A stretch of 57,070 nt of DNA. Origin: a virus (taxonomy: Duplodnaviria; Caudoviricetes). The stretch lies in IMG/VR virus record IMGVR_UViG_3300031949_000043, positions 1 through 57,070 of that record. The stretch is one strand, 5' to 3'. Positions 3,643 to 40,273 of the stretch are shown in pieces; position 1 is the stretch's first letter, and the number at the start of each line of letters is the position of its first letter. A model generated the notes under the pieces. It was not told the DNA's origin. It ran no database searches and saw nothing but the letters and a program-made list of their open reading frames with translations. A program made the translations under genes and the position numbers.

Positions 3643-3920
3643 CCTCTATCACCGTCGATGAATGGGCCAAGGCGCTGGAGGAAGCCTATGGAAGAGGCGC
3701 TACGCCCAGCGGATTTACCTCCGCCGAGATCGCGGCGGCCACCGGGCACTCGGCGACCTTCGTGCGGATGAAACTCGGGCAGTTGATCGCATTGGGTGTG
3801 GCGCGGCTACAGGGCCACAAACGGATTACTTGCATCAACGGTCGATCGGCCCATGTTCCCTGTTATTCGCTGATCCCACGCGAGAAACGATCATCTAGTC
3901 GCGTCTTGTCCAAGCAATGA
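3612..3920 (+). CDS. Small winged-helix DNA-binding protein
   Basis: FTSAEIAAATGHSATFVRMKLGQL HTH-like segment followed by a wing; start codon uncertain; ATGA overlap with portal. Confidence 0.55.
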   Translation: MATGTTKSGVASITVDEWAKALEEAYGRGATPSGFTSAEIAAATGHSATFVRMKLGQLIALGVARLQGHKRITCINGRSAHVPCYSLIPREKRSSSRVLSKQ

Positions 3921-5768: not shown

Positions 5769-5909
5769 ATGATCACCTTCAACGGCCCGCCCACGGCGCT
5801 CCAGATATGGATCATACTCGCCATGCTGTTGATCGTGATAGTCATGCTGTTCAGCGACTACCTCGGTAATTCCGAAGACAAATCGTCGGACGACGAAGAG
5901 GGCGTCTGA
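5769..5909 (+). CDS. Small single-pass membrane protein (46 aa)
   Basis: MITFNGPPTALQIWIILAMLLIVIVMLF hydrophobic stretch and acidic tail; TGATG coupling to the next gene. Confidence 0.5.
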   Translation: MITFNGPPTALQIWIILAMLLIVIVMLFSDYLGNSEDKSSDDEEGV

Positions 5910-6466
5910 TGCTGCTGGTGGAGCGGCAGAAGCTGACGATCACGGAGGCAAATCGACTGGCGGAATCCAACCTTGGACTCTGCCATAGCGCCGTGCGTCG
6001 GGCGACGGTTCCGTACTTCGTCGTAGGCAAGGATGACCAGTATCAGATCGCCCGCATGGCCATCGTCTTGGCTGCCAGAAACCACGATGAACGGCTTGCC
6101 AAATTCTCGACGCTCGCCGTTTTGGCAGCGGTTCGCGCCATCCGGGCATTCGGTGAATACGAGACTCGGGCGAAGCGCCGTGGAAATCTTTATGCGCGTG
6201 GGGGGGAGTCAACGGAACGATTGGCATCCGCCGACCATGTTGCGAGCCGTATCTCCGATCGAGAGATCGCCGAAGTCGCCATGGGATCGCTGGGCAAGAA
6301 CGAAAAACTGATCGTCCGCAGATACATCATGCAAGGGGAGACGCTGATGAACATCGGCAGGTCACTTGGGATAAGCCACGAAGGCGTACGCCAAATCGCC
6401 AAGCGTGCCATCAGTCGCATGCGCGCCGCAGTCGCAAAAGCGATGCGAACGGGGAAAGGGAAATGA
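5909..6466 (+). CDS. Sigma-70 family RNA polymerase sigma factor (regions 2 and 4)
   Basis: NLGL...DDQYQIARMAIVLAARNHD....KFSTLA (region 2); ETLMNIGRSLGISHEGVRQIAKRAISRMR (region 4.2). Confidence 0.8.
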   Translation: MLLVERQKLTITEANRLAESNLGLCHSAVRRATVPYFVVGKDDQYQIARMAIVLAARNHDERLAKFSTLAVLAAVRAIRAFGEYETRAKRRGNLYARGGESTERLASADHVASRISDREIAEVAMGSLGKNEKLIVRRYIMQGETLMNIGRSLGISHEGVRQIAKRAISRMRAAVAKAMRTGKGK

Positions 6467-7482
6467 ACGAACTGTGGATCGCTGGCTATCCCGGACTGCT
6501 CGGCGGTGCGAAAACAGAAACACTGCATATCGCCGGTTGTCTGTCATCGCATGGCGTCCAGTTACATTTCGTGCCCTACGAAGCGCCGGAGGATCCGCTG
6601 CGTAGGTATTGCGATTCCAAAGGCTGGCCAACTCACGGGAACGCCGACGACGTGTTCGCCGGAAAAACAGTCGCGGCGTGGAACGAAGGCCGGTTCCTGC
6701 TGAACCTGCCGAGTTACATGAAACACGGACCTCCAGCGAAGGTCATCTTCTTCAACTGTATGACCTTCACTAACCAATGGGAGATCGCATGCCACAAGCA
6801 GGGATGGATCGATCTATACGGATTTGTCAGCAATCACCAGAAAGCATTGCTTACCCATGCATTGTCGCCGCATGGACCGGTCAACGAGTTTTCTGGTTAC
6901 ATCCCGCATCTCAACCCAGATAACGACTTGCAACCATTTCGGTTCAAACCGGCACCACTGAACGACGAGTTCGTGATCGTCCGGGTTTCCCGCGACGATC
7001 CGACCAAGTACAGTGGCGACACCTTCCAGATGTACGACAAGATCGATACCGGACGACGAACGAAACGAGTCGTCCTGCTCGGGTACGGCCCGAAGTGCCG
7101 TGCCGCATTCGGCGATCCACCGGGGGATTTTTACGAGATATACGATCAAGGTTCGGTCCCGGTTCAATCCGTGTACGAACGGGCTCATTGTCTTGTCTAC
7201 GCACCCGGTGGCAGCGGGGAATCATTCGGGCGGTTCGTGCTCGAATGCTGGGCGTCGGGGGTTCCGGTGATAACCACGGATTCACACGCATTCCCAGAGT
7301 TGATCGAGGACTGTATCACCGGACTGCTGTGCCGTGACGCACTTGAAATGTCGTGCATGGCATCCGTATTGGCGTGCGACGAAAAAATGAGGCGGCGGTT
7401 GATCCAAGGTGGCTACGACAAACTCCGAACGCGATGGGCGGATTCTGATAAATGCTTTGAGCCATGGAAGGCCGTTCTGTAA
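6463..7482 (+). CDS. Glycosyltransferase, GT-B fold (GT4-like)
   Basis: GGAKTE near N-term; ESFGRFVLECWASGVPVITTD..FPELIED..TGLL (E-x7-E motif). Confidence 0.85.
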   Translation: MNELWIAGYPGLLGGAKTETLHIAGCLSSHGVQLHFVPYEAPEDPLRRYCDSKGWPTHGNADDVFAGKTVAAWNEGRFLLNLPSYMKHGPPAKVIFFNCMTFTNQWEIACHKQGWIDLYGFVSNHQKALLTHALSPHGPVNEFSGYIPHLNPDNDLQPFRFKPAPLNDEFVIVRVSRDDPTKYSGDTFQMYDKIDTGRRTKRVVLLGYGPKCRAAFGDPPGDFYEIYDQGSVPVQSVYERAHCLVYAPGGSGESFGRFVLECWASGVPVITTDSHAFPELIEDCITGLLCRDALEMSCMASVLACDEKMRRRLIQGGYDKLRTRWADSDKCFEPWKAVL

Positions 7483-7488
7483 ACAAGG

Positions 7489-8046
7489 ATGACGCCGACC
7501 CTTTCCATTCTGATCTGCTCGCTGGATCGCCGGAAGCATTTGTTGGACCGGCTGGTGGAGTGTCTCAGGCCGCAACTGTCGGAGGCCATCGAAGTGCTGG
7601 TGGAGACCGACGATGGTCTGATGACCATCGGGGAGAAACGCAACTTGCTGGTCAGCCGATCCAGCGGTCGATGGGTCTGCTTCGTCGACGACGACGATCT
7701 GGTGTCCGACGATTATTGCCCATCGATTCTCAAGGCGCTGGAATCCGAGCCGGATTGCGTCGGGTTCATCGGTCGCATCACGGTGGACGGGAACGAGCGG
7801 GTGTGGAAGCACTTCCATCATTCGATCAGGAATACAAGTTGGTTTGAAAAAAACGGTCATTTTTTTCGTTGCCCCAATCACCTTAATCCGATCCGCCGTG
7901 AACTGGTAGTCCAAGTGCCGTTCCCGCACAGGTCATTCGGCGAAGACCACGACTTCTCGCTGCGGATCTATCCGCTGCTCAAGTCTGAGGTATTCATTGA
8001 TAAGGTTCTCTACCGATATCTCTTTCGCAAGCAAAAGACGGTTTGA
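7489..8046 (+). CDS. Glycosyltransferase, GT-A (GT2-like)
   Basis: LSILICS, IGEKRN, FVDDDDLV, GEDHDF. Confidence 0.85.
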   Translation: MTPTLSILICSLDRRKHLLDRLVECLRPQLSEAIEVLVETDDGLMTIGEKRNLLVSRSSGRWVCFVDDDDLVSDDYCPSILKALESEPDCVGFIGRITVDGNERVWKHFHHSIRNTSWFEKNGHFFRCPNHLNPIRRELVVQVPFPHRSFGEDHDFSLRIYPLLKSEVFIDKVLYRYLFRKQKTV

Positions 8047-8049
8047 AAA

Positions 8050-8724
8050 ATGAGCAACGTCTTCGTCGTCCTCCCTACGGCCAACGTCGAACTCGCAGAA
8101 GAGAATCTCCGTATATGGCGAGATCACGGTTACAAGATAGCGCTGCTGATGAACGGTCCGGCTTACGGTCGGCATGTCGATGCCGAGTTCATTACGCACT
8201 CCGAGCGGTATCCCGGCTGGGGAGAATCGATTAACCGGCTGGCGCGGTCGGTTTTCGACGGTTATCCATCCGTCGATTGGATTGTGGGGGCTGGCGATGA
8301 TATGTGGCCGGACCCGGACGTATGCCCGGACAAGATCGCCAGCGAATGCACGGAGCATTTCATGGGGACGTTCGGGGTCATGCAGCCGTGCGGGGATACA
8401 TGGCTGGGAAATAGCGACAAAATCTGCGGGTCGCCATGGATCGGTCGTGAATTCGCCCGCCGCTGGAACGGTGGACATGGACCGTTCTGGCCGAGTTATC
8501 TGCATCTCTGGGCGGACACCGAGCTGCACCAGACGACCCATATGCTTGGTCGGCTTTGGAATCGCTACGACCTGACCCACGAACACCGTCATTTTCTCCG
8601 TGTCGGCTGTCAGCGTCCGCGTCCTCAGTACATGGAGCGGATTTATCTGAACGCCAATGCCGACCGTGCGTTATACATGCGCCGCGTCAGGGAAGGTTTT
8701 CCGGGACACGAGCCAGCAGCATGA
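8050..8724 (+). CDS. Putative GT-A glycosyltransferase
   Basis: VVLPT, GAGDDMWP, Y.HLWADTEL, HEH motifs within the GT operon. Confidence 0.7.
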   Translation: MSNVFVVLPTANVELAEENLRIWRDHGYKIALLMNGPAYGRHVDAEFITHSERYPGWGESINRLARSVFDGYPSVDWIVGAGDDMWPDPDVCPDKIASECTEHFMGTFGVMQPCGDTWLGNSDKICGSPWIGREFARRWNGGHGPFWPSYLHLWADTELHQTTHMLGRLWNRYDLTHEHRHFLRVGCQRPRPQYMERIYLNANADRALYMRRVREGFPGHEPAA

Positions 8725-8731
8725 GGTTGTC

Positions 8732-8950
8732 ATGATCGATATTAGCCGTCCGGCCTTTCCAAGCTCCAATCCCGTGAATTTCGTGCATGGCATGAGCATT
8801 CGTGATTATTTCGCGGCGCATGTGGCGGCCGGGATCGCCTCCGCTTCAATTGACCATGTTTCTAACGAATGCATTGCAAATACGGCATACAAGATCGCCG
8901 ACGAGATGCTCGTTGAGGGTGGGCACAAGAAACGGACTCAGGGGACGTGA
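8732..8950 (+). CDS. Small phage protein (GMS.RDYFAA family)
   Basis: PAFP...GMSIRDYFAA...AYKIADEML, a common phage small-protein motif. Confidence 0.7.
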   Translation: MIDISRPAFPSSNPVNFVHGMSIRDYFAAHVAAGIASASIDHVSNECIANTAYKIADEMLVEGGHKKRTQGT

Positions 8951-9174
8951 TCATGCCCATCTCACAGCGGGAATTTCTGGATGGAGAACACGCACGGTTC
9001 GGCAACGAAGCGATGCGGATGGGAGATACTCCGGAACGCCGTTGCGAATCTGGCCCATTGTGTCCGGCATGCGGTTCGGTGAACGTCGCTTCGATCCTGT
9101 GCGACGATGGCGGAGAGGATGAGGCGGCGCTCCTGTATTGCCGGGACTGCCGATTCAGGTGTGCGGCCCCATGA
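8947..9174 (+). CDS. Small zinc-ribbon protein
   Basis: CPACGS...CRDC; overlaps both neighbours by 4 nt. Confidence 0.5.
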   Translation: MIMPISQREFLDGEHARFGNEAMRMGDTPERRCESGPLCPACGSVNVASILCDDGGEDEAALLYCRDCRFRCAAP

Positions 9175-9899
9175 ACATGGCATCGATCAAGAACTTCGAC
9201 TACCCGATACCAAAGCCGTGGATCGCCCAGCAACTCCGGGAACGACCCAACCCGGTCATTCTGGAGATCGGCTGCAACGATGGCAAGGACACCTTGGAGT
9301 TCATGGAGCAACTTCCGCGCATCCACTTGCATGCCTTCGAGCCCGATCCGCGTCCGCGTAGGCGATTCGAGAAATCGCTAGGCGCACCATTGCCGGATAC
9401 CCTTGGCCCCCACCATCAGGTCCTGCACAATCCGCGCATGAGCACCACGCTCTGGTTCTATCCGGTCGCAATCGGAGAGCGAGACGGCGATGTCCCATTC
9501 TTTCAGAGCAATGGGAACATCCCGGGGGCGCACGTTGTGGACTGGGACTTGTCCGGCTCGATCCGCGAACCGACGGGGCATCTCAAGCGCGACAAGCAGG
9601 TGAAGTTTGAACGGATGATCACCGTACCGTGCTGGCGGCTAGACACTTGGATGAGTTGTGTCAATTATCCGATCATCGACTTCATCTGGATGGATGTTCA
9701 GGGTGCCGAGGGGGATGTCATTCGCGGCGGGCCAGAGACGCTCAAGCGGACGCGGATGATCTACACTGAATTTTATAATGTGCCACAGTACGAAGGCCAA
9801 CCAAATCTCCAGCAGATACTCGATCTGCTCGGACCAACGTGGAAATTGGTCTCGACATTCGAGGGGTACAACGCCCTGATCGCCAACGCGGCGCAATAG
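9171..9899 (+). CDS. FkbM-family SAM-dependent methyltransferase
   Basis: ILEIGCNDG, HAFEPDP, LDTW, IDFIWMDVQGAE, IYTE. Confidence 0.9.
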   Translation: MNMASIKNFDYPIPKPWIAQQLRERPNPVILEIGCNDGKDTLEFMEQLPRIHLHAFEPDPRPRRRFEKSLGAPLPDTLGPHHQVLHNPRMSTTLWFYPVAIGERDGDVPFFQSNGNIPGAHVVDWDLSGSIREPTGHLKRDKQVKFERMITVPCWRLDTWMSCVNYPIIDFIWMDVQGAEGDVIRGGPETLKRTRMIYTEFYNVPQYEGQPNLQQILDLLGPTWKLVSTFEGYNALIANAAQ

Positions 9900-9907
9900 G
9901 ACTGATA

Positions 9908-10657
9908 ATGCCAACCCAGAACGCGATCGATTACTGGTACGTGAACTTGGCGTCACGGCCCGACCGAAACGATCATGCCTGCTTCGAGTTCGCCAAGGCC
10001 GGAATCTTCGCGCGGCGATTTGAAGCGTATACGCCGGATCAGTATCCCGGAGCCCAAGACAAGATCGCGCGCATGAAGGCTCGGACGCCGGGGGCCATCG
10101 GGTGCATGATGTCCCAGATGGCCGTCATGCGAACGGCGCAGGGGTCTGATCGTGCGGTCGGCGTATTCGAGGACGACGTGGTACTATGCAGCGACTTCAA
10201 AGATCGCATCTCGTATCTCTGTGAACATCTACCGGATGACTGGGATATCGCGTGGCTTGGCTCGACCGTGCATGTCAACCCGCCGGTCTGGCACAAGACA
10301 ACGCTGAAGCGCGATCTGGAGCGTACCCCGGACAAGCGGATCTTCCGGGCCTACGGCGTCTGGTCAACTTATGCCTATTTGGTGCGAGGGTCGAGCGTGG
10401 CACGGGTACTCGATCTGTGCGACCAGAATATGTATCGATCGGACGGCATCGATCACTGCATGATGCTCTACGTGCAGCCCACCTTGAGAACCTATTGCCT
10501 GATGCCCGGTTCAACGTGGCAGTACGACAACAAGAGCAACATCGGTACGGGCATGACGGAATTCAGTACGTTCAAGAAACTTGGACCATACGTCTGGGCT
10601 GATCATATGGAAGATTTCGATCCGGACACGTTCGACTGGGCGGAGGCCGCGCGATGA
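9908..10657 (+). CDS. Glycosyltransferase family 25-like
   Basis: YVNLASRPDR, GAIGCMMS, VFEDDV, DWDIAWLG, STYAYLV. Confidence 0.85.
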   Translation: MPTQNAIDYWYVNLASRPDRNDHACFEFAKAGIFARRFEAYTPDQYPGAQDKIARMKARTPGAIGCMMSQMAVMRTAQGSDRAVGVFEDDVVLCSDFKDRISYLCEHLPDDWDIAWLGSTVHVNPPVWHKTTLKRDLERTPDKRIFRAYGVWSTYAYLVRGSSVARVLDLCDQNMYRSDGIDHCMMLYVQPTLRTYCLMPGSTWQYDNKSNIGTGMTEFSTFKKLGPYVWADHMEDFDPDTFDWAEAAR

Positions 10658-11208
10658 GATACCCGCCGTCGATCACCCATCGCATTCAACTTGGCGATCT
10701 CATGCGCGAGCGAAAAGTGTTCGGAGCAGTCGCGGAAATTGGGGTTGCGTCCGGTTTGTTCTCCGCAGATATTCTCCGCTGGGGAGTACCTCTTCTCTAT
10801 CTCGTCGATGTCTGGAAATGCAGCCCGCAACTCAAGGGAGATGGGGCATTCCCGCAAGAATGGCATGACGCGAACTTGGCGGCGTGTCATCATCGTCTGA
10901 GAGATTACGAAGACCGAACATTCTTCCTCCACGGTCTTTCGCACGAGATGGCCAAGTGCGTTCCGGATCTGTCTCTCGGCATGGTCTATCTGGACGGTAG
11001 CCACGATTACGCCGCGGTATTGCGCGATCTGAATGCATGGACTCCCAAGTTGGTATCAGGTGGGATCATGGCCGGGCACGACTACATGACTACGGCATAT
11101 GGGGTTCACAAGGCCGTGAATGAGTTTGCCATGAACGTCAGGTTGATCCCAGACAACAGCAGCGCCGACTCCGGTTTTTGGTTTACCAAGAAAGATCAGG
11201 TGTATTGA
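10654..11208 (+). CDS. Class I SAM methyltransferase (Methyltransf_24-like)
   Basis: AEIGVASG, LVDVW, VYLDGSHDY, GGIMAGHDY, GV.KAV.EF. Confidence 0.85.
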   Translation: MRYPPSITHRIQLGDLMRERKVFGAVAEIGVASGLFSADILRWGVPLLYLVDVWKCSPQLKGDGAFPQEWHDANLAACHHRLRDYEDRTFFLHGLSHEMAKCVPDLSLGMVYLDGSHDYAAVLRDLNAWTPKLVSGGIMAGHDYMTTAYGVHKAVNEFAMNVRLIPDNSSADSGFWFTKKDQVY

Positions 11209-11870
11209 TGACCAAAGCGGAACTCAATGGCCTGCGCGGCGAGGTGATCGTGGAAGACATTTACGGTCTGCGCACGCTCACTGGACCGATCGATGTCGTA
11301 TTCGATCTTGGTGCCAACGTCGGATTGTTCGCCGAGCACGCGAGATCGCTATTCCCCGAGGCCAAGATTGTCTGCGTCGAGCCACACCCGGAAAATTTCG
11401 CGGAGCTACAAAAAAGGCACGGGCATGATCCGAAGATCGTGCTGATCAACCGTGCGATCGGCGACGGACCGGTGTTTCACGCCGTGGGTGCGGCCAATGG
11501 CTCGTGCGAGTGTTATCTTCCTGCTGGATTCGGCTACGACTTGGCGGAGATGCGACTGGATCCTCGGCTTACGGAAAGCGAAATTCGATCGATCGGCGTC
11601 GATGACTTGGTGGGCGAGTACGCGGGATGGCTAGACCGATATGTGATCAAAATGGACATCGAGGGTGCCGAGAACGCGGTGTTCGCCGATCCCCTGTCGC
11701 GGGCGGCGCTTCGCGGGGCCGCCCATCTCGCTATCGAGGTCCACCATTACGCGCTCAATGCCGAGGTTCATCCCGAGATGGTCCGCAATGTCGATCGCGT
11801 ACTCGCCGAATTCGGGCAGACCCATGATTGCCAGATGAAGCATGTCATTTTTACGGCGCGCAGGAAATGA
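11208..11870 (+). CDS. FkbM-family methyltransferase
   Basis: VFDLGANVG, VEPHPENF, IKMDIEGAE, IEVH. Confidence 0.9.
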   Translation: MTKAELNGLRGEVIVEDIYGLRTLTGPIDVVFDLGANVGLFAEHARSLFPEAKIVCVEPHPENFAELQKRHGHDPKIVLINRAIGDGPVFHAVGAANGSCECYLPAGFGYDLAEMRLDPRLTESEIRSIGVDDLVGEYAGWLDRYVIKMDIEGAENAVFADPLSRAALRGAAHLAIEVHHYALNAEVHPEMVRNVDRVLAEFGQTHDCQMKHVIFTARRK

Positions 11871-11882
11871 AGGAAGGCCAAG

Positions 11883-12680
11883 ATGCCACAGATCGACTGG
11901 CAGAAATTCCACGAATTCAAATATGAACTCAGCATAATGCTGGGCGAACTGGATCGCTCGCCGAAATTCCACGAATTCAAATACGAACTTAACATGATGC
12001 TTAGCGCGATGGATCGCTTGATTCGGAGTTCCCATCCGCCCGTCGGCATTGTGGGAAGTCAGTGTGGCGAAGACGAAATCATCGGCAGGCTATTGCAGGA
12101 ACCAACCGGATTCTACGTCGATGTTGGCGCGGGATCGCCCGTCGAATGCTCGAATACGTTCAAGCTCTACCAGCGCGGTTGGCGTGGATTGTTGGTCGAG
12201 TGCCTGCCAAGCGCGTGGCACGCGCTATTGCGTCATCGACCGGGAGATCTTCTATCGCCGCTGGCGGCGCTAGACACGCACTGTTTCGCCCGATTGCGCG
12301 TCGCCGATTCCGTTAGTTCGATAAGGCCCGACTGGGACATTGCGGAGTTGGGAGAAGTCATCGTCGAATGCGATACGCTCGCGAACATCTTGGCTCCCTT
12401 CCCCGAGATCCGCGACGGCTGCTCGCTGCTGTCGATCGACGTTGAGGGCGCGGAGGCGCTGGTCATCAAGGGCATCGACTGGAACACGTTCCACCCGAAG
12501 GTAATCATCGTCGAGAAAATTCGGTATCACCACGATGCAGCAGCGCGCGCCGCGTGGCTGGCCAAGCATGGCGAGTCAGATGCCAGCGATGATCTGTCGC
12601 CGGAATGGCACGGCATGCTGACCGCGCAGGGATATCTGGTTCATCAAATGAATCACCTCAACAGGATTTACGTCAAGTAA
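11883..12680 (+). CDS. FkbM-family methyltransferase with duplicated 20-aa N-terminal segment
   Basis: SQCGED, GFYVDVGA..P...SNT, GWRGLLVE, LLSIDVEGAE, PKVIIVE. Confidence 0.88.
   Translation: MPQIDWQKFHEFKYELSIMLGELDRSPKFHEFKYELNMMLSAMDRLIRSSHPPVGIVGSQCGEDEIIGRLLQEPTGFYVDVGAGSPVECSNTFKLYQRGWRGLLVECLPSAWHALLRHRPGDLLSPLAALDTHCFARLRVADSVSSIRPDWDIAELGEVIVECDTLANILAPFPEIRDGCSLLSIDVEGAEALVIKGIDWNTFHPKVIIVEKIRYHHDAAARAAWLAKHGESDASDDLSPEWHGMLTAQGYLVHQMNHLNRIYVK
11903..12018 (+). repeat. Imperfect 60-bp tandem duplication (2 copies)
   Basis: GAAATTCCACGAATTCAAATA(T/C)GAACT...GGATCGCT starts at 11903 and 11963. Confidence 0.9.
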
Positions 12681-12683
12681 GCC

Positions 12684-13409
12684 ATGTTCATCACCGCATT
12701 CTCACTTACCTGCAACCGCCCGCACTTGCTCTCTCGCGTCATCAGATGCTTCGAGCGGCAAACGTATCCGGCGAAGGATCGCTACCTCATAGTCCTCGAC
12801 GACTTGTGCCAATACGACAACTACAAAGGAGACCGCTGGGAAATGATCTCTCTGCCACGGCGGATACTTTCGCTCGGAGAGAAGAACAACGCCGCAATCG
12901 CCATGATGCCGCCCGAGACCGAGGCGATCGCCAAAATGGATGACGATGATTTCTACTACCCGCACATGATGGCAGCGCAAGCGGAGGCGTTGATGCGCGG
13001 CGAGTGGGTGCAGCCCCGGCACGCGATAGACCACGTAGATAACGAGTGGGTGCAGATCGAAACATTCAATCGCCAGTTCCCAGAGAAGCATGCTTATCAC
13101 GGCGGCTGGGCGTATACACGCGAATTGTTCGTTCGACTCGGCGGATACGGCGCTGATTACGCAGGTGACGATGGGCCATTGCAGGAGCGGTGGCTTGCCG
13201 GTGGCGCAGCGTCTGTCGATATCGTGGGACCGCCCTACTACCGATACAACAGGCCGCTCCCCAATCGCATCAGCATGATCGGTCCAGACCGTGATGCCTA
13301 CGAAAAGTGTGGCGCTGGCGCGCAGTTCGTCGGCAAGATTCCAGAGTGGACTGATGAGACGGATTGGAACACGCCGATCCCAGAGAAAATTATTCAACGA
13401 GGCTGGTGA
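12684..13409 (+). CDS. Glycosyltransferase, GT2-like
   Basis: TCNRP.LL..VIRCFERQTYP, IVLDD, LGEKNN, KMDDDDFY. Confidence 0.85.
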   Translation: MFITAFSLTCNRPHLLSRVIRCFERQTYPAKDRYLIVLDDLCQYDNYKGDRWEMISLPRRILSLGEKNNAAIAMMPPETEAIAKMDDDDFYYPHMMAAQAEALMRGEWVQPRHAIDHVDNEWVQIETFNRQFPEKHAYHGGWAYTRELFVRLGGYGADYAGDDGPLQERWLAGGAASVDIVGPPYYRYNRPLPNRISMIGPDRDAYEKCGAGAQFVGKIPEWTDETDWNTPIPEKIIQRGW

Positions 13410-13969
13410 TGGAAGTCACAAAACGCAATGACCTGTTTGCCCTCTTGAACGAACGCGGCCTTAGAGGAAACGCTGTCGAGATCGGAGTTGCCGAGGGCGG
13501 GTACTCGTTCTACTTGCTCGACTGTGTGCCCGGCATGGTCTGTTATCAGGTCGATCCGTGGTGCGAACTCGATAGCACGGAATACAACGACTACAACAAT
13601 GTTTCGGTTCGGGAACATCTGCGGAGATACCGGTTGGTCGTCGAGACCGCCAGAAAATACAACGGCCGCGCCGTCCCCCTTCGATGCTTCTCGCGCGAGG
13701 CGGCGACGATGTTCGACGACGGTTTCTTCGACTTCGTGTACATCGATGCGAATCACCGTCTGGACTTCATCCGCGAGGATTTGCTGCTCTGGTATCCGAA
13801 GGTAAAGTCCGGCGGCGTGTTCGCCGGCCACGATTATCTCGACGGCGTGATCAAGTCGGGGGAATATGGCGTTCGGACGGCAGTAGATGAATTCGCTGCC
13901 AAGCACAACTTGACGATCAACGTGACGCTTGAGGCGGACTATCCGTCATGGTGGATCGTCAAGCCATGA
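13409..13969 (+). CDS. Class I SAM methyltransferase (Methyltransf_24-like), paralog of 10654..11208
   Basis: VEIGVAEG, VDPW, FDFVYIDANH, KSGGVFAGHDY, GV.TAVDEF. Confidence 0.88.
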   Translation: MEVTKRNDLFALLNERGLRGNAVEIGVAEGGYSFYLLDCVPGMVCYQVDPWCELDSTEYNDYNNVSVREHLRRYRLVVETARKYNGRAVPLRCFSREAATMFDDGFFDFVYIDANHRLDFIREDLLLWYPKVKSGGVFAGHDYLDGVIKSGEYGVRTAVDEFAAKHNLTINVTLEADYPSWWIVKP

Positions 13970-14745
13970 ACTGGAACCTGCCAGAATCCATCATCGAAAG
14001 CTGGCTGGCGGATTGCCGGCTGGCGATATCTTCGCCGGAAGCGTTCGCCACTTTCCGGCAAATGCCGCACGTTACCTACATCACCGAGAATTGGCACGCC
14101 CATCACGTCGATGAACTCTGGGGGAGTGCGAAAAGCATCTATCCGGGGATCGCGCGGCGATTGCCGGAAATTTCGGCCTCGGACGCGCTGGGTGGGTCGG
14201 CTGCTTCGGACGTAGCGACGGTGGATGGATATCCGCTGTCTGGATGCGCCGCCCACGCGGCGCTGCGGGCGGCACAGATCGTCTCGTTGTTCGGTCGTGG
14301 CCCGTTCGATATTGCCGAGATCGGCGGAGGCTACGGGTGTCTGGCCAACGTGTTGAATCACGTCGGGCTGGTCCGCAGCTACATCGGCTTCGATCTTCCG
14401 GATCCGGCCGCGTTGCAGCAGCGTTACTTGACGGCGCAGGGCTGGCTGGGCGAATGGCCGCAAGCGGGCGAGATTCCTCGCGACAGATATGACCTGTGCA
14501 TCAGCATCTACAGCATTTCAGAGTTGAACGAAATCGCCCGCGATGATTATGCCGAGCGAGTGCTGCGTCGAAGTCGCCGTGGGTTTCATGTGTGGAACTG
14601 GGGCCGTGAATATTGGTACGCGCCGTCGGATGCAGAAAAGGTGCGGGAATGGCTGTCGGTGATCTCTTCGGCTGTGATCCAAGGCCCACACGGTCCGGGC
14701 ATGTGGAAGGGGGTCTTTGCTTGGGGAGGGGATAAATCACCATGA
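13966..14745 (+). CDS. Putative sugar O-methyltransferase
   Basis: IAEIGGGYG, FDLP, QQRYL, YDLCISIYSISEL motifs. Confidence 0.75.
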   Translation: MNWNLPESIIESWLADCRLAISSPEAFATFRQMPHVTYITENWHAHHVDELWGSAKSIYPGIARRLPEISASDALGGSAASDVATVDGYPLSGCAAHAALRAAQIVSLFGRGPFDIAEIGGGYGCLANVLNHVGLVRSYIGFDLPDPAALQQRYLTAQGWLGEWPQAGEIPRDRYDLCISIYSISELNEIARDDYAERVLRRSRRGFHVWNWGREYWYAPSDAEKVREWLSVISSAVIQGPHGPGMWKGVFAWGGDKSP

Positions 14746-15383
14746 AAAAACTACTGGTCACAATCGCGACAGAGAACATTCTTCCTCACTGCGGCGAGAT
14801 TCTGGAAACGCAGAGCGCATACGCGGCGGCCAACGGCTACGAGTACCGCCTCGTGAGCGATCTGCATTGGAAGGACATGCATCCATCCTTCAGCAAGGTG
14901 TGGGAGATTCATCGGGCGCTCGAAGAGGGATACGACTTCTTCATCTGGGCCGACGCAGATGTCGCGTTCATGGATCCGGCTTACGACTTCCTGAAGCTGC
15001 TAGAGCCCGACTACTTCGTGGCCGCGTATCAACAGACAAATTGGCGGTCGTGGAAGTATCTGTGCAACGGGCTGTTCATCATGCGGAACACACAGCAAGC
15101 CAAAGCCTACGTCAAGGAATGGATGCGCCGTTGCGAGTTGCGAACCATGGTCGATATGCCTTATGAGCAATGGTTTTGGGACGAACTCATGCGCGAGACC
15201 AACTGGGCGAACATACGCTGCTGCACCGCCGCCGAGATCGGATGCTTCTCGTCGCAGATTTGGCACGACGGCACGATCTGGCAGCCGGGCATGCCGACCG
15301 TTCATCTTGGCGGCCCTGCCGACTGGCCGCGTCGTCGGCAAGTCTTCGTCGATAACTACCTGCCACTGGTCAAGCGCGCATGA
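14742..15383 (+). CDS. Glycosyltransferase family 34-like (galactosyl/xylosyl-transferase)
   Basis: YAAANGYEY, SFSKV, YDFFIWADADV, NGLFIMRN, EQ, VHLGG. Confidence 0.75.
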   Translation: MKKLLVTIATENILPHCGEILETQSAYAAANGYEYRLVSDLHWKDMHPSFSKVWEIHRALEEGYDFFIWADADVAFMDPAYDFLKLLEPDYFVAAYQQTNWRSWKYLCNGLFIMRNTQQAKAYVKEWMRRCELRTMVDMPYEQWFWDELMRETNWANIRCCTAAEIGCFSSQIWHDGTIWQPGMPTVHLGGPADWPRRRQVFVDNYLPLVKRA

Positions 15384-16360
15384 AAACCATCGGGCTATTG
15401 ATCACCGCATACGAGGAACACAAGCGACTAGGGAAACTCCAGCGTGCGGCGGAGATTGCATTTGCCGACGAGCGTATCCGCGAACTGGTGGTGTGGGACG
15501 ACTCGGGGGACGGCAGCGATGGAATGCGCCACTTCTCGTCCGTATGTGCCGAGTTTCGCCGCAGGTGTCCGGCGCATCTCAAGCTCGTGACCGGATGGAA
15601 CCAGAAAAATCGCGGCGTGTTCGGCAACAAACTAGCGGCCATCCGCGCCAGCCGCTCCGCATGGGTGCAATCGCTGGACTCGGACAACCATTTCGGCGCA
15701 GAGTATCTCGACACGCTGTTCGCCATCGAGTGGTTGCCGCATCTGATGATCTCGCCGTCATATGCGGCCCCCGAATTCGACTACCGTGAAAAATCAGGTC
15801 ATAAGATCACATTGTCCAACGCGGTTACTTTTTTCGAGTGGCCGCGCGCCTGCTGTCTGCTGAATACCGGCAATCAATTCTTCTACCAGCCTGGCATGCT
15901 TACGATTATGGCCAATGCCAAGGAGGAGTCGTTCCACTTGGATCAGCCGGATTATTTCCACGCTGGACCGAACTTGGAAGAGGTGCGCTGGCGTAAGGTA
16001 TACGACGCCGGAGATTCGTTCTATTTCAACAAGCGCTGGCTGGAGGCTGGCAACGAAATTCTTGTCGCCCCCGGTCTGACCTACCAGCACGAGGTACACA
16101 AGGGCAGTTCGTGGCAGGCGGCACCGCCGGAGAAGGAAATCCTGACGATCATCTATGCGATGGAATTGATAGACCGCGCCAATGACATCTCTGCCGGGTA
16201 CGTTGTAGAAGGGATCGGTCCGGCGTATTCGGTGCGTCCGCCGCTTCCCGTGCAGGCACACGAGCGCGTTGTGGTCATGCGGAGGCGAACGGGAGATGAT
16301 CAATATCGCATTTGGGTCCGCATCGTCCAGCCGCGGATATTGCGATCGGTGAAACTCTAG
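15380..16360 (+). CDS. Putative GT-A glycosyltransferase
   Basis: LLITAY, VVWDDS, NRGVFGNK, SLDSDN, LNTGN, Y.H.VH. Confidence 0.7.
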   Translation: MKTIGLLITAYEEHKRLGKLQRAAEIAFADERIRELVVWDDSGDGSDGMRHFSSVCAEFRRRCPAHLKLVTGWNQKNRGVFGNKLAAIRASRSAWVQSLDSDNHFGAEYLDTLFAIEWLPHLMISPSYAAPEFDYREKSGHKITLSNAVTFFEWPRACCLLNTGNQFFYQPGMLTIMANAKEESFHLDQPDYFHAGPNLEEVRWRKVYDAGDSFYFNKRWLEAGNEILVAPGLTYQHEVHKGSSWQAAPPEKEILTIIYAMELIDRANDISAGYVVEGIGPAYSVRPPLPVQAHERVVVMRRRTGDDQYRIWVRIVQPRILRSVKL

Positions 16361-17269
16361 ATGCCCGTGCTGCAAATGACACAACTCGGGCGGATGGGGC
16401 GTGCCGGAAATTCATTCGTCCAATATGCATTTCTGAAGATCTATAGCCGAAGACATGGGCTGGCCGTTCAGGTGCCGCCGTGGATTGGCGAGACGCTTTT
16501 TGGTTTCCGGGATGCGCCTCCGGGGCGGATTCTGCCGGCGTTCCATGAGAACGTGCATACACCGCGTGGGAAGGAGATCATCCCCAATCTAAAGCAGCCG
16601 CTCCGTGACGTGGATGTGCATGGCTACTTTCAGTACGAAACGTCCTATTATGCGCCAGATCGGGAGTACATCCAGAATTTGTTCGCTAGACCGGCGCAGG
16701 CGATGGTGGACCGGATGTCACCAGCGATCGATCGGCTTCGGCATGGCGCTCAGCAGGTGATCGGCGTGCATGTCCGGCGTGGCGACTATGGGCAGAGAAA
16801 GACGATATTCTATCTCACGCCGATCGACTGGTATGTAGAGGCGCTCGATCGGCTTGTGACGCCAAGCACGACCGTGTTTGTGTCATCCGATGATCCGACG
16901 GTCGTTCGGTCTTTTGCCAAATACAATCCTGTGACCGCACCCGATCTCGGCATCAATCTCTCCAAAGATCCGCTGCCGGGAATTTGTCATCTGGCCAAGG
17001 ATGTTCGGGATGGAAATGCGACGGCGCTGGACTTTTTCCCCGACTGGGAACTCCTGCGGCATTGCGACACCATGTTGATCCCCAACAGCACATTCTCGTT
17101 CACCGCCGCGTGGCTGAGCACATGCGCACAATCGGTCTGGCGGTCTAATCCGGATACGCGGAGATTCGAGGCGATAGACCCATGGGATTCGCCGATGGCC
17201 CAGTTCTTCGATCCCAGTCAATACCAGCACGTTCCGGGGATGTGGATGGAGAAGAATTTATATTGGTGA
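16361..17269 (+). CDS. Glycosyltransferase family 11 (alpha-1,2-fucosyltransferase-like)
   Basis: GRAGNSFVQY, GYFQ, GVHVRRGDY, VSSDD, NSTFSFTAAWL. Confidence 0.88.
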   Translation: MPVLQMTQLGRMGRAGNSFVQYAFLKIYSRRHGLAVQVPPWIGETLFGFRDAPPGRILPAFHENVHTPRGKEIIPNLKQPLRDVDVHGYFQYETSYYAPDREYIQNLFARPAQAMVDRMSPAIDRLRHGAQQVIGVHVRRGDYGQRKTIFYLTPIDWYVEALDRLVTPSTTVFVSSDDPTVVRSFAKYNPVTAPDLGINLSKDPLPGICHLAKDVRDGNATALDFFPDWELLRHCDTMLIPNSTFSFTAAWLSTCAQSVWRSNPDTRRFEAIDPWDSPMAQFFDPSQYQHVPGMWMEKNLYW

Positions 17270-17300
17270 ACGAGCAGCCCGTGCGTCTGCTATAGGCAAT

Positions 17301-17489
17301 GTGATGAGCGACAATGACCAGAAGGACGAGATAGAATATCCGATGCGCGCCGTGTCGGAATCAGACTTTCGCCGCTTGGCCGTCATCCGCGGCTGGCGGG
17401 AGAAGGTGATCGGGTTGTTTTGCAAGCAGCCATGGTGCAACCGATTCGTGAAAGTTGGAGAGGAACGTCTGAAGATCGTCCGGGGATAG
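17301..17489 (+). CDS. Hypothetical protein
   Basis: Fills the gap in the operon; no motif recognised. Confidence 0.4.
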   Translation: MMSDNDQKDEIEYPMRAVSESDFRRLAVIRGWREKVIGLFCKQPWCNRFVKVGEERLKIVRG

Positions 17490-17494
17490 CCAAA

Positions 17495-18172
17495 ATGAAC
17501 ATAACGGCGATCACCGTTTGCGTTGACTACTCGGACTACCTATCTCCCCATATCGGAAAATGGCGGAAGGGCATAGAGAAAATGATCGTCGTGAGCGACG
17601 AGAAGGATGAAAAAACCAATGGGCTGTGCATGTTGTATAACGCGCTCTGTCACAGAACCGGGGTCTTCTATGCCAATGGCGCATCGTTCAACAAGGGCGC
17701 GGCGCTATCCGAGGCGATCGCGGAACATCGCGTGATCGAACGTGCCGACTGGGTGCTCCTGTTCGATGCCGATATGATCCCACCGGATGGCTGGCGGCAG
17801 AAGATCGAGGTTTCGATAAATCTCCAACGCGGATGGCTGTATGGCGCGAATCGGAGGAACGAATCGGGAAAGCAGATCAACGACAACGAGATCGCCGGGT
17901 ACTTCCAGTTATTCCACGCATCGGACGACAACGTGCAGCGGAAACCATTGCTGGAGACCTGTTGGCGTCACGCCGGCTCTTATGATACAGAATTTCAGTC
18001 CCGATGGCCTCGTGGTCGTCGGGCGTTCCTTCCCCTAACATTGATCCATCAGGGTCCGCATAGCACGAACTGGTGGGGTCGCGGGAATGTACAGGCCATG
18101 CAGGAAATGCGGCGGTTTCGTTCGATATATGGCAACTACGAGTACGAGAAGATCAAGCCAGTTTCGTCTTGA
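17495..18172 (+). CDS. Putative GT-A glycosyltransferase
   Basis: AITVCVDYSDYL, FNKGAAL, WVLLFDADM, GYFQLF, D.EF, H.G..NW.GR. Confidence 0.75.
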   Translation: MNITAITVCVDYSDYLSPHIGKWRKGIEKMIVVSDEKDEKTNGLCMLYNALCHRTGVFYANGASFNKGAALSEAIAEHRVIERADWVLLFDADMIPPDGWRQKIEVSINLQRGWLYGANRRNESGKQINDNEIAGYFQLFHASDDNVQRKPLLETCWRHAGSYDTEFQSRWPRGRRAFLPLTLIHQGPHSTNWWGRGNVQAMQEMRRFRSIYGNYEYEKIKPVSS

Positions 18173-18520: not shown

Positions 18521-18562
18521 GACGCCCGGACGTTCCAGCCCACGTTCGGGCGTTCTTGTTTT
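18521..18562 (+). terminator. Rho-independent terminator ending the glycosylation operon
   Basis: 13-bp stem GACGCCCGGACGT/ACGTTCGGGCGTT followed by CTTGTTTT. Confidence 0.6.
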
Positions 18563-21581: not shown

Positions 21582-21621
21582 CATTTGAGAAGATGTCCGC
21601 GATTCACGTCTTTTCCTGTCG

Positions 21622-32962: not shown

Positions 32963-32987
32963 CCGGTATAGGCGTCTTTCCCGATTG

Positions 32988-40180: not shown

Positions 40181-40273
40181 GTCGGCAGATTACGGCATGG
40201 CCACTTTCTCCGTTCACAATTTCTGAACGCCGGGGGATTTTGTCCAGTAGCATCCGCCCGTCCTAAGCGGGCA

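What the first reader, a model, noticed from the sequence alone, without database searches (positions are those of the whole stretch)
6463..18172. Very large phage glycosylation plus O-methylation operon inside the virion morphogenesis region (candidate methylated glycan shield)
Seen: about 9 glycosyltransferases of at least five types (GT4, several GT2/GT-A, GT25, GT34, GT11) and 6 SAM methyltransferases (3 FkbM, 2 Methyltransf_24-like, 1 sugar O-MTase-like), tightly packed and mostly translationally coupled, between the portal and the virion proteins. A seventh MTase sits at 37789. I see no NDP-sugar synthesis genes, flippase, polymerase or undecaprenyl-linked transferase, and no obvious TM segments in the enzymes. 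Known: serotype-conversion cassettes (GtrABC) are membrane-bound, while some mycobacteriophages glycosylate capsid/tail proteins using a few soluble GTs encoded among structural genes. Inference: a cytoplasmic pathway using host NDP-sugars builds a complex, heavily O-methylated glycan on virion proteins (Ser/Thr-rich fibres and capsid lie downstream), at a scale more like giant viruses than a temperate phage.
Basis: partly seen in the sequence, partly recalled or inferred. Interest (0 to 1): 0.85.

Follow-up and report, generated by a model that had tools for sequence, protein, structure and literature searches.

The report
Phage sugar-building and methylating gene cluster
An uncultured soil phage carries seventeen back-to-back genes, nearly all sugar-adding or methyl-adding enzymes, that most likely coat its own capsid and tail proteins with methylated sugars, as some mycobacteriophages are known to do.

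Summary
Window 6463-18172 is one co-directional block of 17 ORFs: 9 glycosyltransferase (GT) candidates, 6 SAM methyltransferases (MT) and 2 small ORFs. None has a predicted membrane segment. The block lies between portal/sigma factor and the tailspikes, and a strong terminator-like hairpin follows it.

The second gene, a GT2, is 35-38% identical over its full length to the GT domain of Che8 gp108, Che9d gp109 and Gordonia phage Forza gp93. All 63 matching records among cultured phages are actinophages. [quoted passage not shown] Che8 gp108-110 is GT2+Methyltransf_24, a GT2-like protein and a GT25, families also present here. Corndog's cassette also lies between portal and protease.

A GT4-GT2 pair is conserved after the portal in two relatives. 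No enzyme that prepares DNA for glycosylation was found here or in a complete relative.

The claim of giant-virus scale is overstated. The GT2 family has 296 relatives in IMG/VR, and 26 of 50 examined records have an MT within 10 kb. The capsid protein is not Ser/Thr-rich.

The acceptor remains unproven; host-envelope glycan is the main rival. Verdict: new variant of a known kind, moderate interest.

The parts
3917..5713 (+). T4-type portal protein (left flank)
   Evidence: Portal_T4 E 4.5e-27; 41 metagenomic homologs at 32-56% identity
5909..6466 (+). Phage sigma factor; its stop overlaps the GT4 start by 4 nt, so it is probably the first gene of the transcription unit
   Evidence: Sigma70_r4 E 2.1e-9; phrog_351 E 3.4e-16; junction
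6463..7482 (+). GT4 (GT-B) glycosyltransferase; conserved in the lineage
   Evidence: Glycos_transf_1 and Glyco_trans_1_4 above cut-off; 40-42% identical orthologs next to the portal in G001 and G002; no homolog in cultured phages; best solved relative is BshA, E 3.9e-6
7489..8046 (+). Short GT2 of the phrog_14775/8858 family; conserved in the lineage; homolog of the GT domain of Che8 gp108
   Evidence: Pfam GT2 41.5 bits; phrog_14775 E 1.2e-35; 35-38% identity to Che8 gp108, Che9d gp109 and Forza gp93; 42-44% to the G001 and G002 orthologs; invariant VDDDD motif
8050..8724 (+). GT-A-like protein of a phage-specific family
   Evidence: No Pfam or PHROG hit; Atlas model pTM 0.90, TM 0.79 to GT2 clusters; weak match in L003
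8657..8950 (+). Small ORF of unknown function; its real start is probably later
   Evidence: phrog_2201 E 3.9e-11
8947..9174 (+). Small Cys-rich ORF, possibly a zinc ribbon
   Evidence: FdhE_central E 2.4e-4, below cut-off
9138..9899 (+). FkbM-family SAM methyltransferase
   Evidence: Methyltransf_21 60.9 bits; TIGR01444 67.5 bits
9839..10657 (+). GT25 glycosyltransferase
   Evidence: Glyco_transf_25 38.7 bits; phrog_2835 E 4.8e-9; only a short local match to Che8 gp110 and Corndog gp38 (E 0.001-0.002)
10654..11208 (+). Methyltransf_24 (TylF/O-MT type) methyltransferase
   Evidence: 47 bits; phrog_2675 E 1.3e-21
11178..11870 (+). FkbM-family methyltransferase
   Evidence: Methyltransf_21 33.6 bits; TIGR01444 74.9 bits
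11883..12680 (+). FkbM-family methyltransferase
   Evidence: Methyltransf_21 49.6 bits
12684..13409 (+). Probable GT-A/GT2 glycosyltransferase (weakest assignment)
   Evidence: GT2 E 0.013; DDDD motif in the alignment; low-confidence model hits GT-A glycosyltransferases
13364..13969 (+). Methyltransf_24 methyltransferase
   Evidence: 55.3 bits; phrog_2675 E 6.8e-19
13948..14745 (+). NanM-like putative sugar O-methyltransferase
   Evidence: TIGR04371 E 1.3e-10, 41.3 bits against a cut-off of 44; no Pfam hit
14742..15383 (+). GT-A nucleotide-diphospho-sugar transferase
   Evidence: Nucleotid_trans 26.4 bits against 22
15380..16360 (+). GT2-fold glycosyltransferase
   Evidence: Atlas feature score 0.98 and TM 0.65/0.92 to GT2 clusters; Pfam GT2 only E 0.061
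16361..17269 (+). GT11-like (fucosyltransferase-type) glycosyltransferase
   Evidence: Glyco_transf_11 29.4 bits; phrog_2644 E 4.3e-18; 24% identical counterpart in the G001 cluster
17495..18172 (+). GT-A glycosyltransferase of a large family (longest ORF starts at 17420)
   Evidence: 1529 representatives at E<=0.001, aligned from residue 26; model pLDDT 96.5; Foldseek GT-A hits; invariant DxD
18521..18554 (+). Strong terminator-like hairpin (13 pairs, 8 GC) with a T-rich tail; closes the unit
   Evidence: no comparable + strand site lies inside 6463-18172
19902..24090 (+). Two beta-helix tailspike-like proteins (right flank)
   Evidence: Beta_helix and Pect-lyase hits; phrog_7458 tail spike
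34568..35896 (+). Gp23-type major capsid protein, candidate acceptor; ends ...TIANLS
   Evidence: Gp23 E 1.7e-13; C-terminus
42907..43908 (+). Tail tube protein, candidate acceptor; ends ...TIIANS
   Evidence: Phage_tube_2 E 1.5e-30; C-terminus

Best explanation
The block is probably a single transcription unit encoding soluble, cytoplasmic glycan-building enzymes. During virion production they would decorate the phage's own structural proteins with a branched, multiply O-methylated oligosaccharide. The most likely acceptors are the capsid and tail-tube subunits; tailspike or repeat-fibre proteins are also possible.

Shown: the enzyme families, their order, their tight packing, the absence of membrane segments, homology of the GT2 to the GT domain of Che8 gp108, and conservation of the GT4-GT2 pair next to the portal in relatives.

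Inferred:
- Host NDP-sugars and SAM are the donors, because the 57 kb available holds no sugar-nucleotide synthesis gene.
- One enzyme puts the first sugar on a Ser or Thr. The conserved GT4 or the GT25 is the likeliest, the latter by analogy with the GT25-type Che8 gp110 and Corndog gp38.
- The GT-A enzymes extend and branch the chain.
- The FkbM, Methyltransf_24 and NanM-like enzymes methylate sugar hydroxyls.
- The result changes the virion surface (shielding, stability or adsorption).
For: 1. Window GT2 7489-8046 matches 63 of 63 cultured-phage records that are all actinophages (Mycobacterium 39, Gordonia 22, Actinoplanes 2), each over at least 80% of the query. Identity is 35% to Che8 gp108 (E 3e-29), 38% to Che9d gp109 and 36% to Forza gp93.
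2. Che8 gp108 is a GT2 + Methyltransf_24/TylF fusion, gp109 is GT2-like and gp110 is GT25. Corndog gp35 (MT) and gp38 are 54% and 47% identical to the Che8 gp108 C-domain and gp110. The window holds the same three families.
3. Literature, read as passages only: glycosylated proteins were found in Che8, Corndog and Myrna, and Che8 gp110 and Corndog gp38 are called essential for capsid glycosylation (PMC12363180). The glycans sit at the C-termini of capsid and tail tube subunits (PMC12619734). [quoted passage not shown] All cite Freeman 2023, which is not held.
4. The position here is the same: after the portal and before the protease and capsid genes.
5. The GT4-GT2 pair is retained after the portal in G001 (a complete 101-kb genome) and G002 at 40-44% identity, against 50-53% for the portal. 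This points to a long-kept phage function rather than a transient moron.
6. Of the 12 GT2-family virus records that are at least 90% complete, 9 lack a tyrosine integrase. That argues against a mainly lysogenic-conversion role for such clusters.
7. No Tet_JBP, C5 DNA methylase or thymidylate-synthase homolog occurs in the window, G001 or G002.
8. The window's capsid and tube proteins both end in Ser and share IAN (..TIANLS and ..TIIANS). Only 13 of 1891 protein pairs share a tripeptide in their last 7 residues, and 9 of 62 proteins end in S. In Che8, Che9d and Corndog the capsid and major tail proteins also end alike in Ser: GS/GS, DES/DES, GS/DS.
Against: - No experiment bears on this phage.
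- Only one of the 17 genes has specific homology to a validated cassette, and it matches gp108, not gp110, which PMC12363180 names as essential. The match of the window GT25 to gp110 and gp38 is short and weak (E 0.001-0.002). No homolog of gp109/gp37 was found.
- GT25, GT11, FkbM and Nucleotid_trans are typical of LPS and O-antigen pathways, whose GTs are also soluble.
- The shared C-terminal tail is post hoc and absent in relatives.
- GT25 accompanies the GT2 family in only 3 of 50 records.
- One portal relative, L010, has no GT genes in the 8 kb after its portal.
- The phage has an integrase, so a lysogen-expressed role is possible.
- A terminator-like site separates the block from the tailspike genes.
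- phrog_14775 also rings in 10 of 14 control cellular genomes at E<=0.001, so the family is not phage-exclusive at that threshold.
Confidence: 0.5

Rival explanations
1. Host-envelope remodelling. The soluble GTs and MTs act at the inner face of the membrane on the host's lipid-linked LPS, O-antigen, capsule or cell-wall glycan intermediates. Host flippases and ligases export the altered glycan. The changed cell surface would block superinfection or alter recognition, during infection or in the lysogen.
For: - GT25, GT11-like, Nucleotid_trans and FkbM families are typical of LPS and O-antigen clusters (family descriptions; the pathway link is general knowledge).
- Cytoplasmic GTs of such pathways need no membrane segment, so one search does not exclude this.
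- A cyanomyovirus with 13 GTs and 22 cell-wall-related genes is read this way by its authors (PMC12801897, passages).
- The phage carries a tyrosine integrase and an adjacent tRNA-Met.
- The relative G001 encodes an 8-segment membrane protein with a weak PMT_2 (GT-C) hit, E 1.5e-4, below cut-off.
Against: - The 57 kb holds no priming polyprenyl-phosphate transferase, flippase, polymerase, ligase or NDP-sugar gene.
- The block sits inside the morphogenesis region, about 20 kb from the integrase, co-directional with late genes and behind a phage sigma factor.
- The GT4-GT2 core is conserved across relatives at structural-gene-like divergence.
- 9 of 12 complete GT2-family phage records have no tyrosine integrase.
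- The one gene with specific cultured-phage homologs points to virion-glycosylating actinophages.
Confidence: 0.3
2. DNA hypermodification. The GTs build a mono- to oligosaccharide on a hydroxylated pyrimidine in phage DNA to evade restriction, and the MTs trim the sugar chemistry.
For: - Phage GTs related to LPS and teichoic-acid enzymes put up to trisaccharides on 5hmC, and such clusters occur near structural genes (bioRxiv 10.1101/2023.12.21.572611, abstract).
- Poly-arabinosylated 5-hydroxycytosine exists in RB69 and DLP3 (PMC13326640, abstract).
- In G001 and G002 a DNA adenine/N4-N6 methylase gene directly precedes and overlaps the GT4 gene.
- The window encodes a dATP/dGTP-diphosphohydrolase-like protein.
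Against: - All described routes need a thymidylate-synthase homolog, or a C5-methylase plus a TET/JBP dioxygenase. None is found in the window, the complete relative G001 or G002.
- Nine GTs and six sugar-type MTs far exceed any described DNA glycan.
- FkbM and TylF-type MTs are sugar or small-molecule O-methyltransferases.
- The window is only 41% of its genome, so absence there is not final.
Confidence: 0.06
3. Another acceptor. The cluster makes a free or lipid-bound methylated oligosaccharide, or glycosylates a non-virion protein or peptide (host or phage), for example to manipulate host physiology or defence.
For: - The last GT's model resembles peptide S-glycosyltransferases SunS and ThuS as well as polysaccharide synthases.
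- Its family profile weakly hits the flagellin glycosyltransferase GmaR, E 0.022.
- FkbM and TylF-type MTs occur in natural-product pathways (family descriptions).
Against: - The block has no carrier, peptide-precursor or export gene.
- The fold hits are generic GT-A matches with TM 0.55-0.66.
Confidence: 0.1

Closest known systems
Mycobacteriophage virion-glycosylation cassettes (Che8 gp108-110; Corndog gp35-38)
   Same: - Soluble phage GTs plus an O-methyltransferase next to or inside the structural module. In Corndog they lie between portal and protease (PMC4351075).
- The window GT2 is 35% identical to the GT domain of Che8 gp108.
- Methyltransf_24 and GT25 are present in both.
- Capsid and tail proteins end in Ser in both.
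   Different: - 17 genes against 3-4.
- The window adds a GT4, three FkbM MTs, a NanM-like MT, and GT11-like, Nucleotid_trans and several other GT-A enzymes.
- It has no homolog of gp109/gp37.
- The MT is separate rather than fused to the GT2.
- The virion is T4-type (portal, capsid) with a Phage_tube_2 tube, not an actinophage siphovirus.
- No glycoproteomic evidence exists.
Multi-GT/multi-MT clusters around the same GT2 family in uncultured phages (for example loci L015, L018, L043, L052, L030, L056)
   Same: - The GT2 is 35-54% identical.
- Methyltransf_24 or FkbM lies within 10 kb in 26 of 50 records (distances worked out by hand).
- The clusters often lie directly after capsid or tail genes (L018, L043, L052).
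   Different: - Several of them carry their own sugar-nucleotide genes, which the window lacks: NeuB, CMP-sugar cytidylyltransferase, GDP-mannose dehydratase, DegT. Some also carry Maf-type MptE-like proteins.
- At most 2 FkbM genes per record there, against 3 here.
- None is characterised.
Cyanomyovirus cell-wall/LPS gene sets (S-SCSM2R, 13 GTs; PMC12801897)
   Same: A comparable number and diversity of GT families (GT2, GT11, GT25) in a T4-like phage.
   Different: - The cyanophage genes are scattered and come with epimerases, KdsA/B and PgaA.
- Their authors read them as host-surface or DNA modification.
- Methyltransferases are not a feature there.
- The function is untested.
Phage DNA sugar-hypermodification clusters (T4 alpha/beta-GT; MT/5mYOX-dependent GT clusters; RB69/DLP3 arabinosyl-5hoC)
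   Same: Phage-encoded soluble GTs related to LPS and teichoic-acid enzymes, sometimes near structural genes.
   Different: They require a thymidylate-synthase homolog, or a C5-MT plus TET/JBP. These were not found. Their glycans have at most three sugars, and no sugar MTs are described.
GtrABC serotype-conversion cassettes
   Same: A phage-borne glycan modification in a temperate phage.
   Different: Gtr proteins are membrane proteins encoded next to the attachment site. Here nothing in the block has a membrane segment, and the integrase is 20 kb away.
Chlorovirus and giant-virus capsid glycosylation (recalled, not tested)
   Same: Virus-encoded cytoplasmic GTs and MTs build methylated glycans on the capsid. 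The Atlas neighbours of 15380-16360 include Nucleocytoviricota GT2 clusters.
   Different: The hosts are eukaryotic and the capsid type is different. The Atlas similarity is at GT2-family level only and is no evidence of kinship.

Membership tests
Actinophage-type virion glycosylation cassette (Che8/Corndog) | Phage-encoded soluble GTs, with an O-methyltransferase, placed in or beside the structural gene module | tested here: met
   The block lies between the portal and the tailspike/protease/capsid genes. It has no membrane segments and six MTs.
Actinophage-type virion glycosylation cassette (Che8/Corndog) | Sequence homology to the cassette's enzymes | tested here: inconclusive
   The GT2 domain of gp108 is matched clearly (35%, E 3e-29). 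GT25 and Methyltransf_24 match only at Pfam-family level (GT25 local E 0.001). No homolog of gp109/gp37 was found.
Actinophage-type virion glycosylation cassette (Che8/Corndog) | Glycans attached to capsid and tail-tube subunits (C-termini) | not testable with these tools
   Only a lead: both proteins end in Ser with a shared IAN. Relatives do not share this.
GtrABC-type serotype conversion | Membrane proteins: GtrA flippase, bactoprenol-linked GtrB, polytopic GtrC | tested here: not met
   No hydrophobic 19-residue window of 1.6 or more in any enzyme of the block. Pfam gave no such family.
Self-contained O-antigen/capsule/EPS gene cluster | A priming polyprenyl-phosphate transferase with a flippase/polymerase or ABC exporter, and NDP-sugar synthesis genes | tested here: not met
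   None appears among the Pfam hits for 70 window ORFs. The only multi-segment protein is a 129-aa ORF at 19506. The window is 41% of the genome, and host genes could supply these steps.
Phage DNA sugar hypermodification pathway | An enzyme that makes the hydroxylated pyrimidine (thymidylate-synthase homolog, or C5-MT plus TET/JBP dioxygenase) | tested here: not met
   PF00303, PF00145 and PF12851 each gave 0 of 3 records (window, complete G001, G002) at E<=0.1. The controls ring for PF00303 and PF00145 in 10 of 14 genomes.
Glycosyltransferase family 2, phrog_14775/8858 subgroup | Full-length match to the subgroup profile with a conserved DxD acidic motif | tested here: met
   phrog_14775 covers residues 1-182 of 185, E 1.2e-35. 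VDDDD, G-KRN and PNH/ED motifs are invariant across six sequences.

The most novel reading that the evidence does not exclude
This soil phage makes the most elaborate protein-linked glycan yet inferred for a tailed phage: a branched hetero-oligosaccharide built by up to nine GTs and O-methylated by up to six MTs. It would be attached to a short C-terminal tag ending in Ser (IAN(L)S) shared by the capsid and tail-tube subunits. The portal-linked GT4-GT2 pair, conserved across a whole uncultured T4-like-capsid lineage, would form the core. Virion glycan coats would then be a widespread trait of environmental phages rather than an actinophage peculiarity.
Probability: 0.3. Interest if true: 0.8.

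Novelty: new variant of a known kind. Interest (0 to 1): 0.55.

Why it matters
Virion glycosylation is so far documented experimentally only in a few mycobacteriophages. There it is reported to shield particles from antibodies (PMC12363180 and PMC11600133, passages citing Freeman 2023).

This work links one conserved GT2 family to those cassettes. It also shows that the family sits in multi-GT/multi-MT clusters in hundreds of uncultured phages, including a T4-like-capsid soil lineage with a portal-linked GT4-GT2 core.

If the acceptor is indeed the virion, glycan and methyl-glycan coats would be a general and diversifying layer of phage surface biology. That would bear on adsorption, environmental stability, immune recognition in therapy, and mass-spectrometric identification of virion proteins. 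The cluster is also a compact source of soluble GTs and sugar O-MTs.

Tried and rejected
- The portal as a single query in IMG/VR found nothing. The portal alignment found nothing in metagenome contigs and one MAG contig in genome contigs.
- Megablast of the whole block against cultured phages: no match. tblastn of the GT4: no match.
- phmmer against PDB for 12684, 15380, 8050 and the GT25: nothing usable.
- Earlier findings of this scan: none for this genome.
- Test for co-variation of a C-terminal tag. No shared tails were found, so the window's IAN(L)S similarity stays an isolated lead.
- C-termini in three other GT2-family phages (L018, L043, L052) gave no pattern.
- The idea that GT2 + MT + GT25 form a general triad is rejected: GT25 occurs in only 3 of 50 records.
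- Sequencing runs: no RNA holder listed. Two soil-metagenome DNA runs hold the stretch, one of them possibly the source.
- Complex prediction was not used, because an enzyme-substrate pair is a poor case for it.
- Freeman et al. 2023 is not held. Its content is known here only through passages of papers that cite it. Its supplements might list glycosylation sites and gene-knockout results that bear on items 2 and 3 of the evidence.

Full report
**What the window is.** The window is a whole IMG/VR virus record: 57,070 bp, linear, and 41% complete by CheckV. It is a tailed phage with these features:
- a T4-type portal at 3917-5713;
- a prohead protease at 32985-33809;
- a Gp23-type capsid protein at 34568-35896;
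- a Phage_tube_2 tail tube at 42907-43908;
- two beta-helix tailspikes at 19902-24090;
- a tyrosine integrase at 38658-39935 (minus strand), next to a tRNA-Met.

GC content is 56-64% along the window. No cultured phage is close. The capsid protein finds only hits of about 22-23% identity, in 75 records, and the block finds nothing by megablast.

**The observation.** Between 6463 and 18172 lie 17 co-directional ORFs.
- Pfam, NCBIfam and PHROGs assign 5 GTs and 5 MTs above curated cut-offs. A NanM-like sugar O-MT falls 2.7 bits under its cut-off.
- The four unassigned or weak ORFs also resolve as GT-A-fold proteins.
  - 15380-16360 and 8050-8724 are assigned through the ESM Atlas.
  - 17495-18172 has a pLDDT 96.5 model that hits K4CP, SunS/ThuS, SpsA and ppGalNAc-T. 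It has an invariant DxD and belongs to a family with 1529 representatives.
  - 12684-13409 is assigned only weakly: GT2 E 0.013, a DDDD motif and a low-confidence model.
- Genes overlap by 4 nt, abut, or are 3-12 nt apart, except for one 225-nt gap before the last GT.
- No enzyme has a hydrophobic segment.
- The stop of a sigma-factor gene (5909-6466) overlaps the GT4 start.
- The strongest terminator-like hairpin of the region (13 pairs) lies at 18521-18554, just behind the block. Nothing comparable lies inside it.
Several tail or fibre-like proteins reach 22-25%.

**Relatives of the phage.** The portal has 41 metagenomic homologs at 32-56% identity. DNA could be fetched for three.
- G001 is a complete 101-kb genome with terminal repeats. 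G002 is a 17-kb fragment. A MAG contig is L010.
- In G001 and G002 a GT4 (40-42% identical) and the short GT2 (42-44%) follow the portal, against 50-53% identity for the portal itself.
- In both, a DNA adenine/N4-N6 methylase gene directly precedes the GT4.
- At that site G001 also carries a Glyco_trans_1_2 protein, a GT11-like protein and a Methyltransf_24. This makes a block of roughly 10 kb ending at a Pect-lyase tailspike, with no FkbM gene.
- L010 has SSB, a phosphoesterase and a histidine kinase after its portal, and no GT.
- The GT4-GT2 pair is thus a conserved core in three of four loci. The rest of the window's block is a lineage-specific expansion.

**Link to a characterised system.**
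- tblastn of the GT2 (7489-8046) against 50,697 cultured-phage records gives 63 records. All are actinophages (Mycobacterium 39, Gordonia 22, Actinoplanes 2), and each match covers at least 80% of the query.
- The match is to the N-terminal GT domain of Che8 gp108 (35%), Che9d gp109 (38%) and Forza gp93 (36%).
- Che8 gp108 is a GT2 + Methyltransf_24/TylF fusion, gp109 is GT2-like and gp110 is GT25.
- Corndog gp35 (MT), gp37 and gp38 are homologs of the gp108 C-domain, gp109 and gp110.
- Passages of papers that cite Freeman et al. 2023 (itself not held) state the following:
  - Che8, Corndog and Myrna carry glycosylated proteins, and gp110 and gp38 are essential for capsid glycosylation (PMC12363180);
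  - the glycans sit at the C-termini of capsid and tail tube subunits (PMC12619734);
  - cluster O phages have an O-MT followed by three GTs that modify capsid and tail tube (PMC11600133).
- PMC4351075 (passages) places the Corndog genes between portal and protease. It detected the enzymes in infected cells but not in virions.
- The window shares the position and the three enzyme families, but only the GT2 shows specific homology. The GT25 match is short (E 0.001-0.002), and nothing matches gp109/gp37.

**How common such blocks are.** An alignment of the GT2 with its relatives finds 296 relatives in IMG/VR. The best 80 loci were fetched, and 50 records with contigs of at least 17 kb were examined.

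| Feature | Records with it (of 50) |
|---|---|
| Methyltransf_24 | 15 |
| FkbM | 17 (never more than 2 per record) |
| GT25 | 3 |
| Tyrosine integrase | 7 (3 of the 12 that are at least 90% complete) |

- From the coordinates, worked out by hand, Methyltransf_24 lies within 10 kb of the GT2 in 12 of 15 records and FkbM in 15 of 17. Together that is 26 of 50 records.
- Pfam annotation of six loci (124 ORFs) shows large glycan blocks.
  - L015: GT2, GT2/GT7C, Gly_transf_sug, a GT47-like protein, three Methyltransf_24, a Methyltransf_23, NeuB, a CMP-sugar cytidylyltransferase, GDP-mannose dehydratase and an MptE-like protein.
  - L018: the block follows the tail genes directly and includes TylF, two radical-SAM enzymes, an MptE-like protein, NeuB and Nucleotid_trans.
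  - L043 and L052: capsid gene, then GT2, a GT-MT fusion, Methyltransf_24 and GT2.
  - L030: GT2, TylF, GT15, GT25 and two more GT2.
  - L056: a T4-like phage with GDP-mannose dehydratase, GT10, Methyltransf_24 and DegT.
- MptE-like/DUF115 is, from my own recall, the domain of Maf flagellin glycosyltransferases. That would fit protein acceptors in those phages, but I did not test it.
- A cyanomyovirus with 13 GTs is published (PMC12801897, passages).
- The window's block is therefore at the upper end of a common class, not unique in scale. What distinguishes it is the number of MTs (six, including three FkbM) and the lack of any sugar-nucleotide gene.

**The DNA rival.**
- Described phage DNA glycosylation starts from 5hmC, 5hmU or 5hoC. 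These are made by thymidylate-synthase homologs, or by a C5-methylase plus a TET/JBP dioxygenase (abstracts of bioRxiv 10.1101/2023.12.21.572611 and PMC13326640).
- None of PF00303, PF00145 or PF12851 is found in the window, G001 (complete) or G002.
- The methylase-GT4 adjacency in the relatives and the dATP/dGTP-diphosphohydrolase-like gene at 720-1673 keep a small probability alive.

**The envelope rival.**
- The families present are those of LPS and O-antigen pathways, and such GTs are normally soluble. The absence of membrane segments therefore does not decide.
- Against this rival:
  - no priming, export or sugar-nucleotide gene in 57 kb;
  - the position in the morphogenesis region, far from the integrase;
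  - conservation of the core across relatives;
  - most complete phages with the GT2 family lack a tyrosine integrase.
- For it:
  - the integrase;
  - a weak GT-C-like membrane protein in G001;
  - the terminator that separates the block from the tailspike genes.

**A lead on the acceptor.**
- In Che8, Che9d and Corndog the capsid and major tail proteins of each phage end alike in Ser: KTGS/SDGS, DADES/VLDES and LVGS/KGDS.
- In the window the capsid ends ..TIANLS and the tube ..TIIANS.
- Only 13 of 1891 protein pairs in the window share a tripeptide in their last seven residues, and 9 of 62 proteins end in Ser.
- The pattern is not general in the lineage. Only the window's capsid ends in Ser among 13 capsids, while 8 of 14 tubes end in Ser or Thr.
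- I treat it as a testable hint, not as evidence of weight.

**Verdict.** The most likely function is late, cytoplasmic glycosylation and O-methylation of virion proteins (confidence 0.5). Remodelling of host envelope glycans is the main rival (0.3), followed by another acceptor (0.1) and DNA (0.06). The block is a new, enlarged and methylation-rich variant of a known kind. The useful new points are:
- the homology bridge from the mycobacteriophage cassettes to a widespread GT2 family of environmental phages;
- the portal-linked GT4-GT2 core in this T4-like-capsid lineage.

Noticed in passing
window 29686-32133 (+): An 815-aa protein built from at least 17 copies of a 24-residue repeat (PVYT-A/G-S/T-AALTVG-A/P-ATLSASATF-T/D-A). 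It has 26% Ser+Thr and 22% Ala over residues 151-800. TRF sees 72-nt units. It has no Pfam or PHROG hit and no ortholog in G001. It is a possible surface fibre and glycan acceptor.
   Followed up: partly
window 720-1673 (+): A fusion of a dATP/dGTP diphosphohydrolase N-terminal domain (E 4.5e-14) with DUF4406 (E 7.6e-10). This suggests manipulation of the nucleotide pool. No other base-modification gene was seen in the window.
   Followed up: no
window 53656-55146 (+) and 40037-41539 (+): The DUF5131 protein (496 aa) and the N6_N4 DNA methylase (500 aa) each match a model of about 220-240 positions across about 385-430 residues. Both therefore carry large insertions, possibly inteins or inserted domains.
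   Followed up: no
G001 (L006:5810-7690, +): The complete relative encodes a 626-aa protein with eight hydrophobic segments and a weak PMT_2 (GT-C) hit: E 1.5e-4, 22.5 bits against a cut-off of 26.1. It lies on the strand opposite to the neighbouring tail genes. It may be a membrane glycosyltransferase acting outside the cytoplasm, or a spurious ORF.
   Followed up: partly
L011, L013, L014, L094-L096 (Che9d, Che8, Corndog): In each of these three GT-bearing mycobacteriophages the major capsid and major tail proteins end in the same short Ser-terminal motif (GS/GS, DES/DES, GS/DS). Of the 38 other proteins listed from the same loci, 3 end in Ser.
   Followed up: partly
L002:13927-15488 and L003:6722-8652: In both relatives a DNA methyltransferase gene (Dam-type in G001, N6_N4 type in G002) directly precedes the conserved GT4 and overlaps its start. 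In the window a sigma-factor gene holds that place.
   Followed up: no
L015:4822-8075 and L018:14601-18634: The GT2-family clusters of other uncultured phages carry NeuB, a CMP-sugar cytidylyltransferase and an MptE-like (DUF115) protein. L018 also has two radical-SAM enzymes. This looks like a nonulosonic-acid pathway with a Maf-type transferase; the Maf link is recalled, not tested.
   Followed up: no
window 19506-19895 (+): A 129-aa ORF with three hydrophobic segments lies directly before the first tailspike gene. It is the only multi-segment membrane protein predicted in the window and has no family hit.
   Followed up: no
window 45793-46380 (+): A 195-aa ORF with a weak CsrA-like match (E 8.1e-5, 23 bits against a cut-off of 27).
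   Followed up: no
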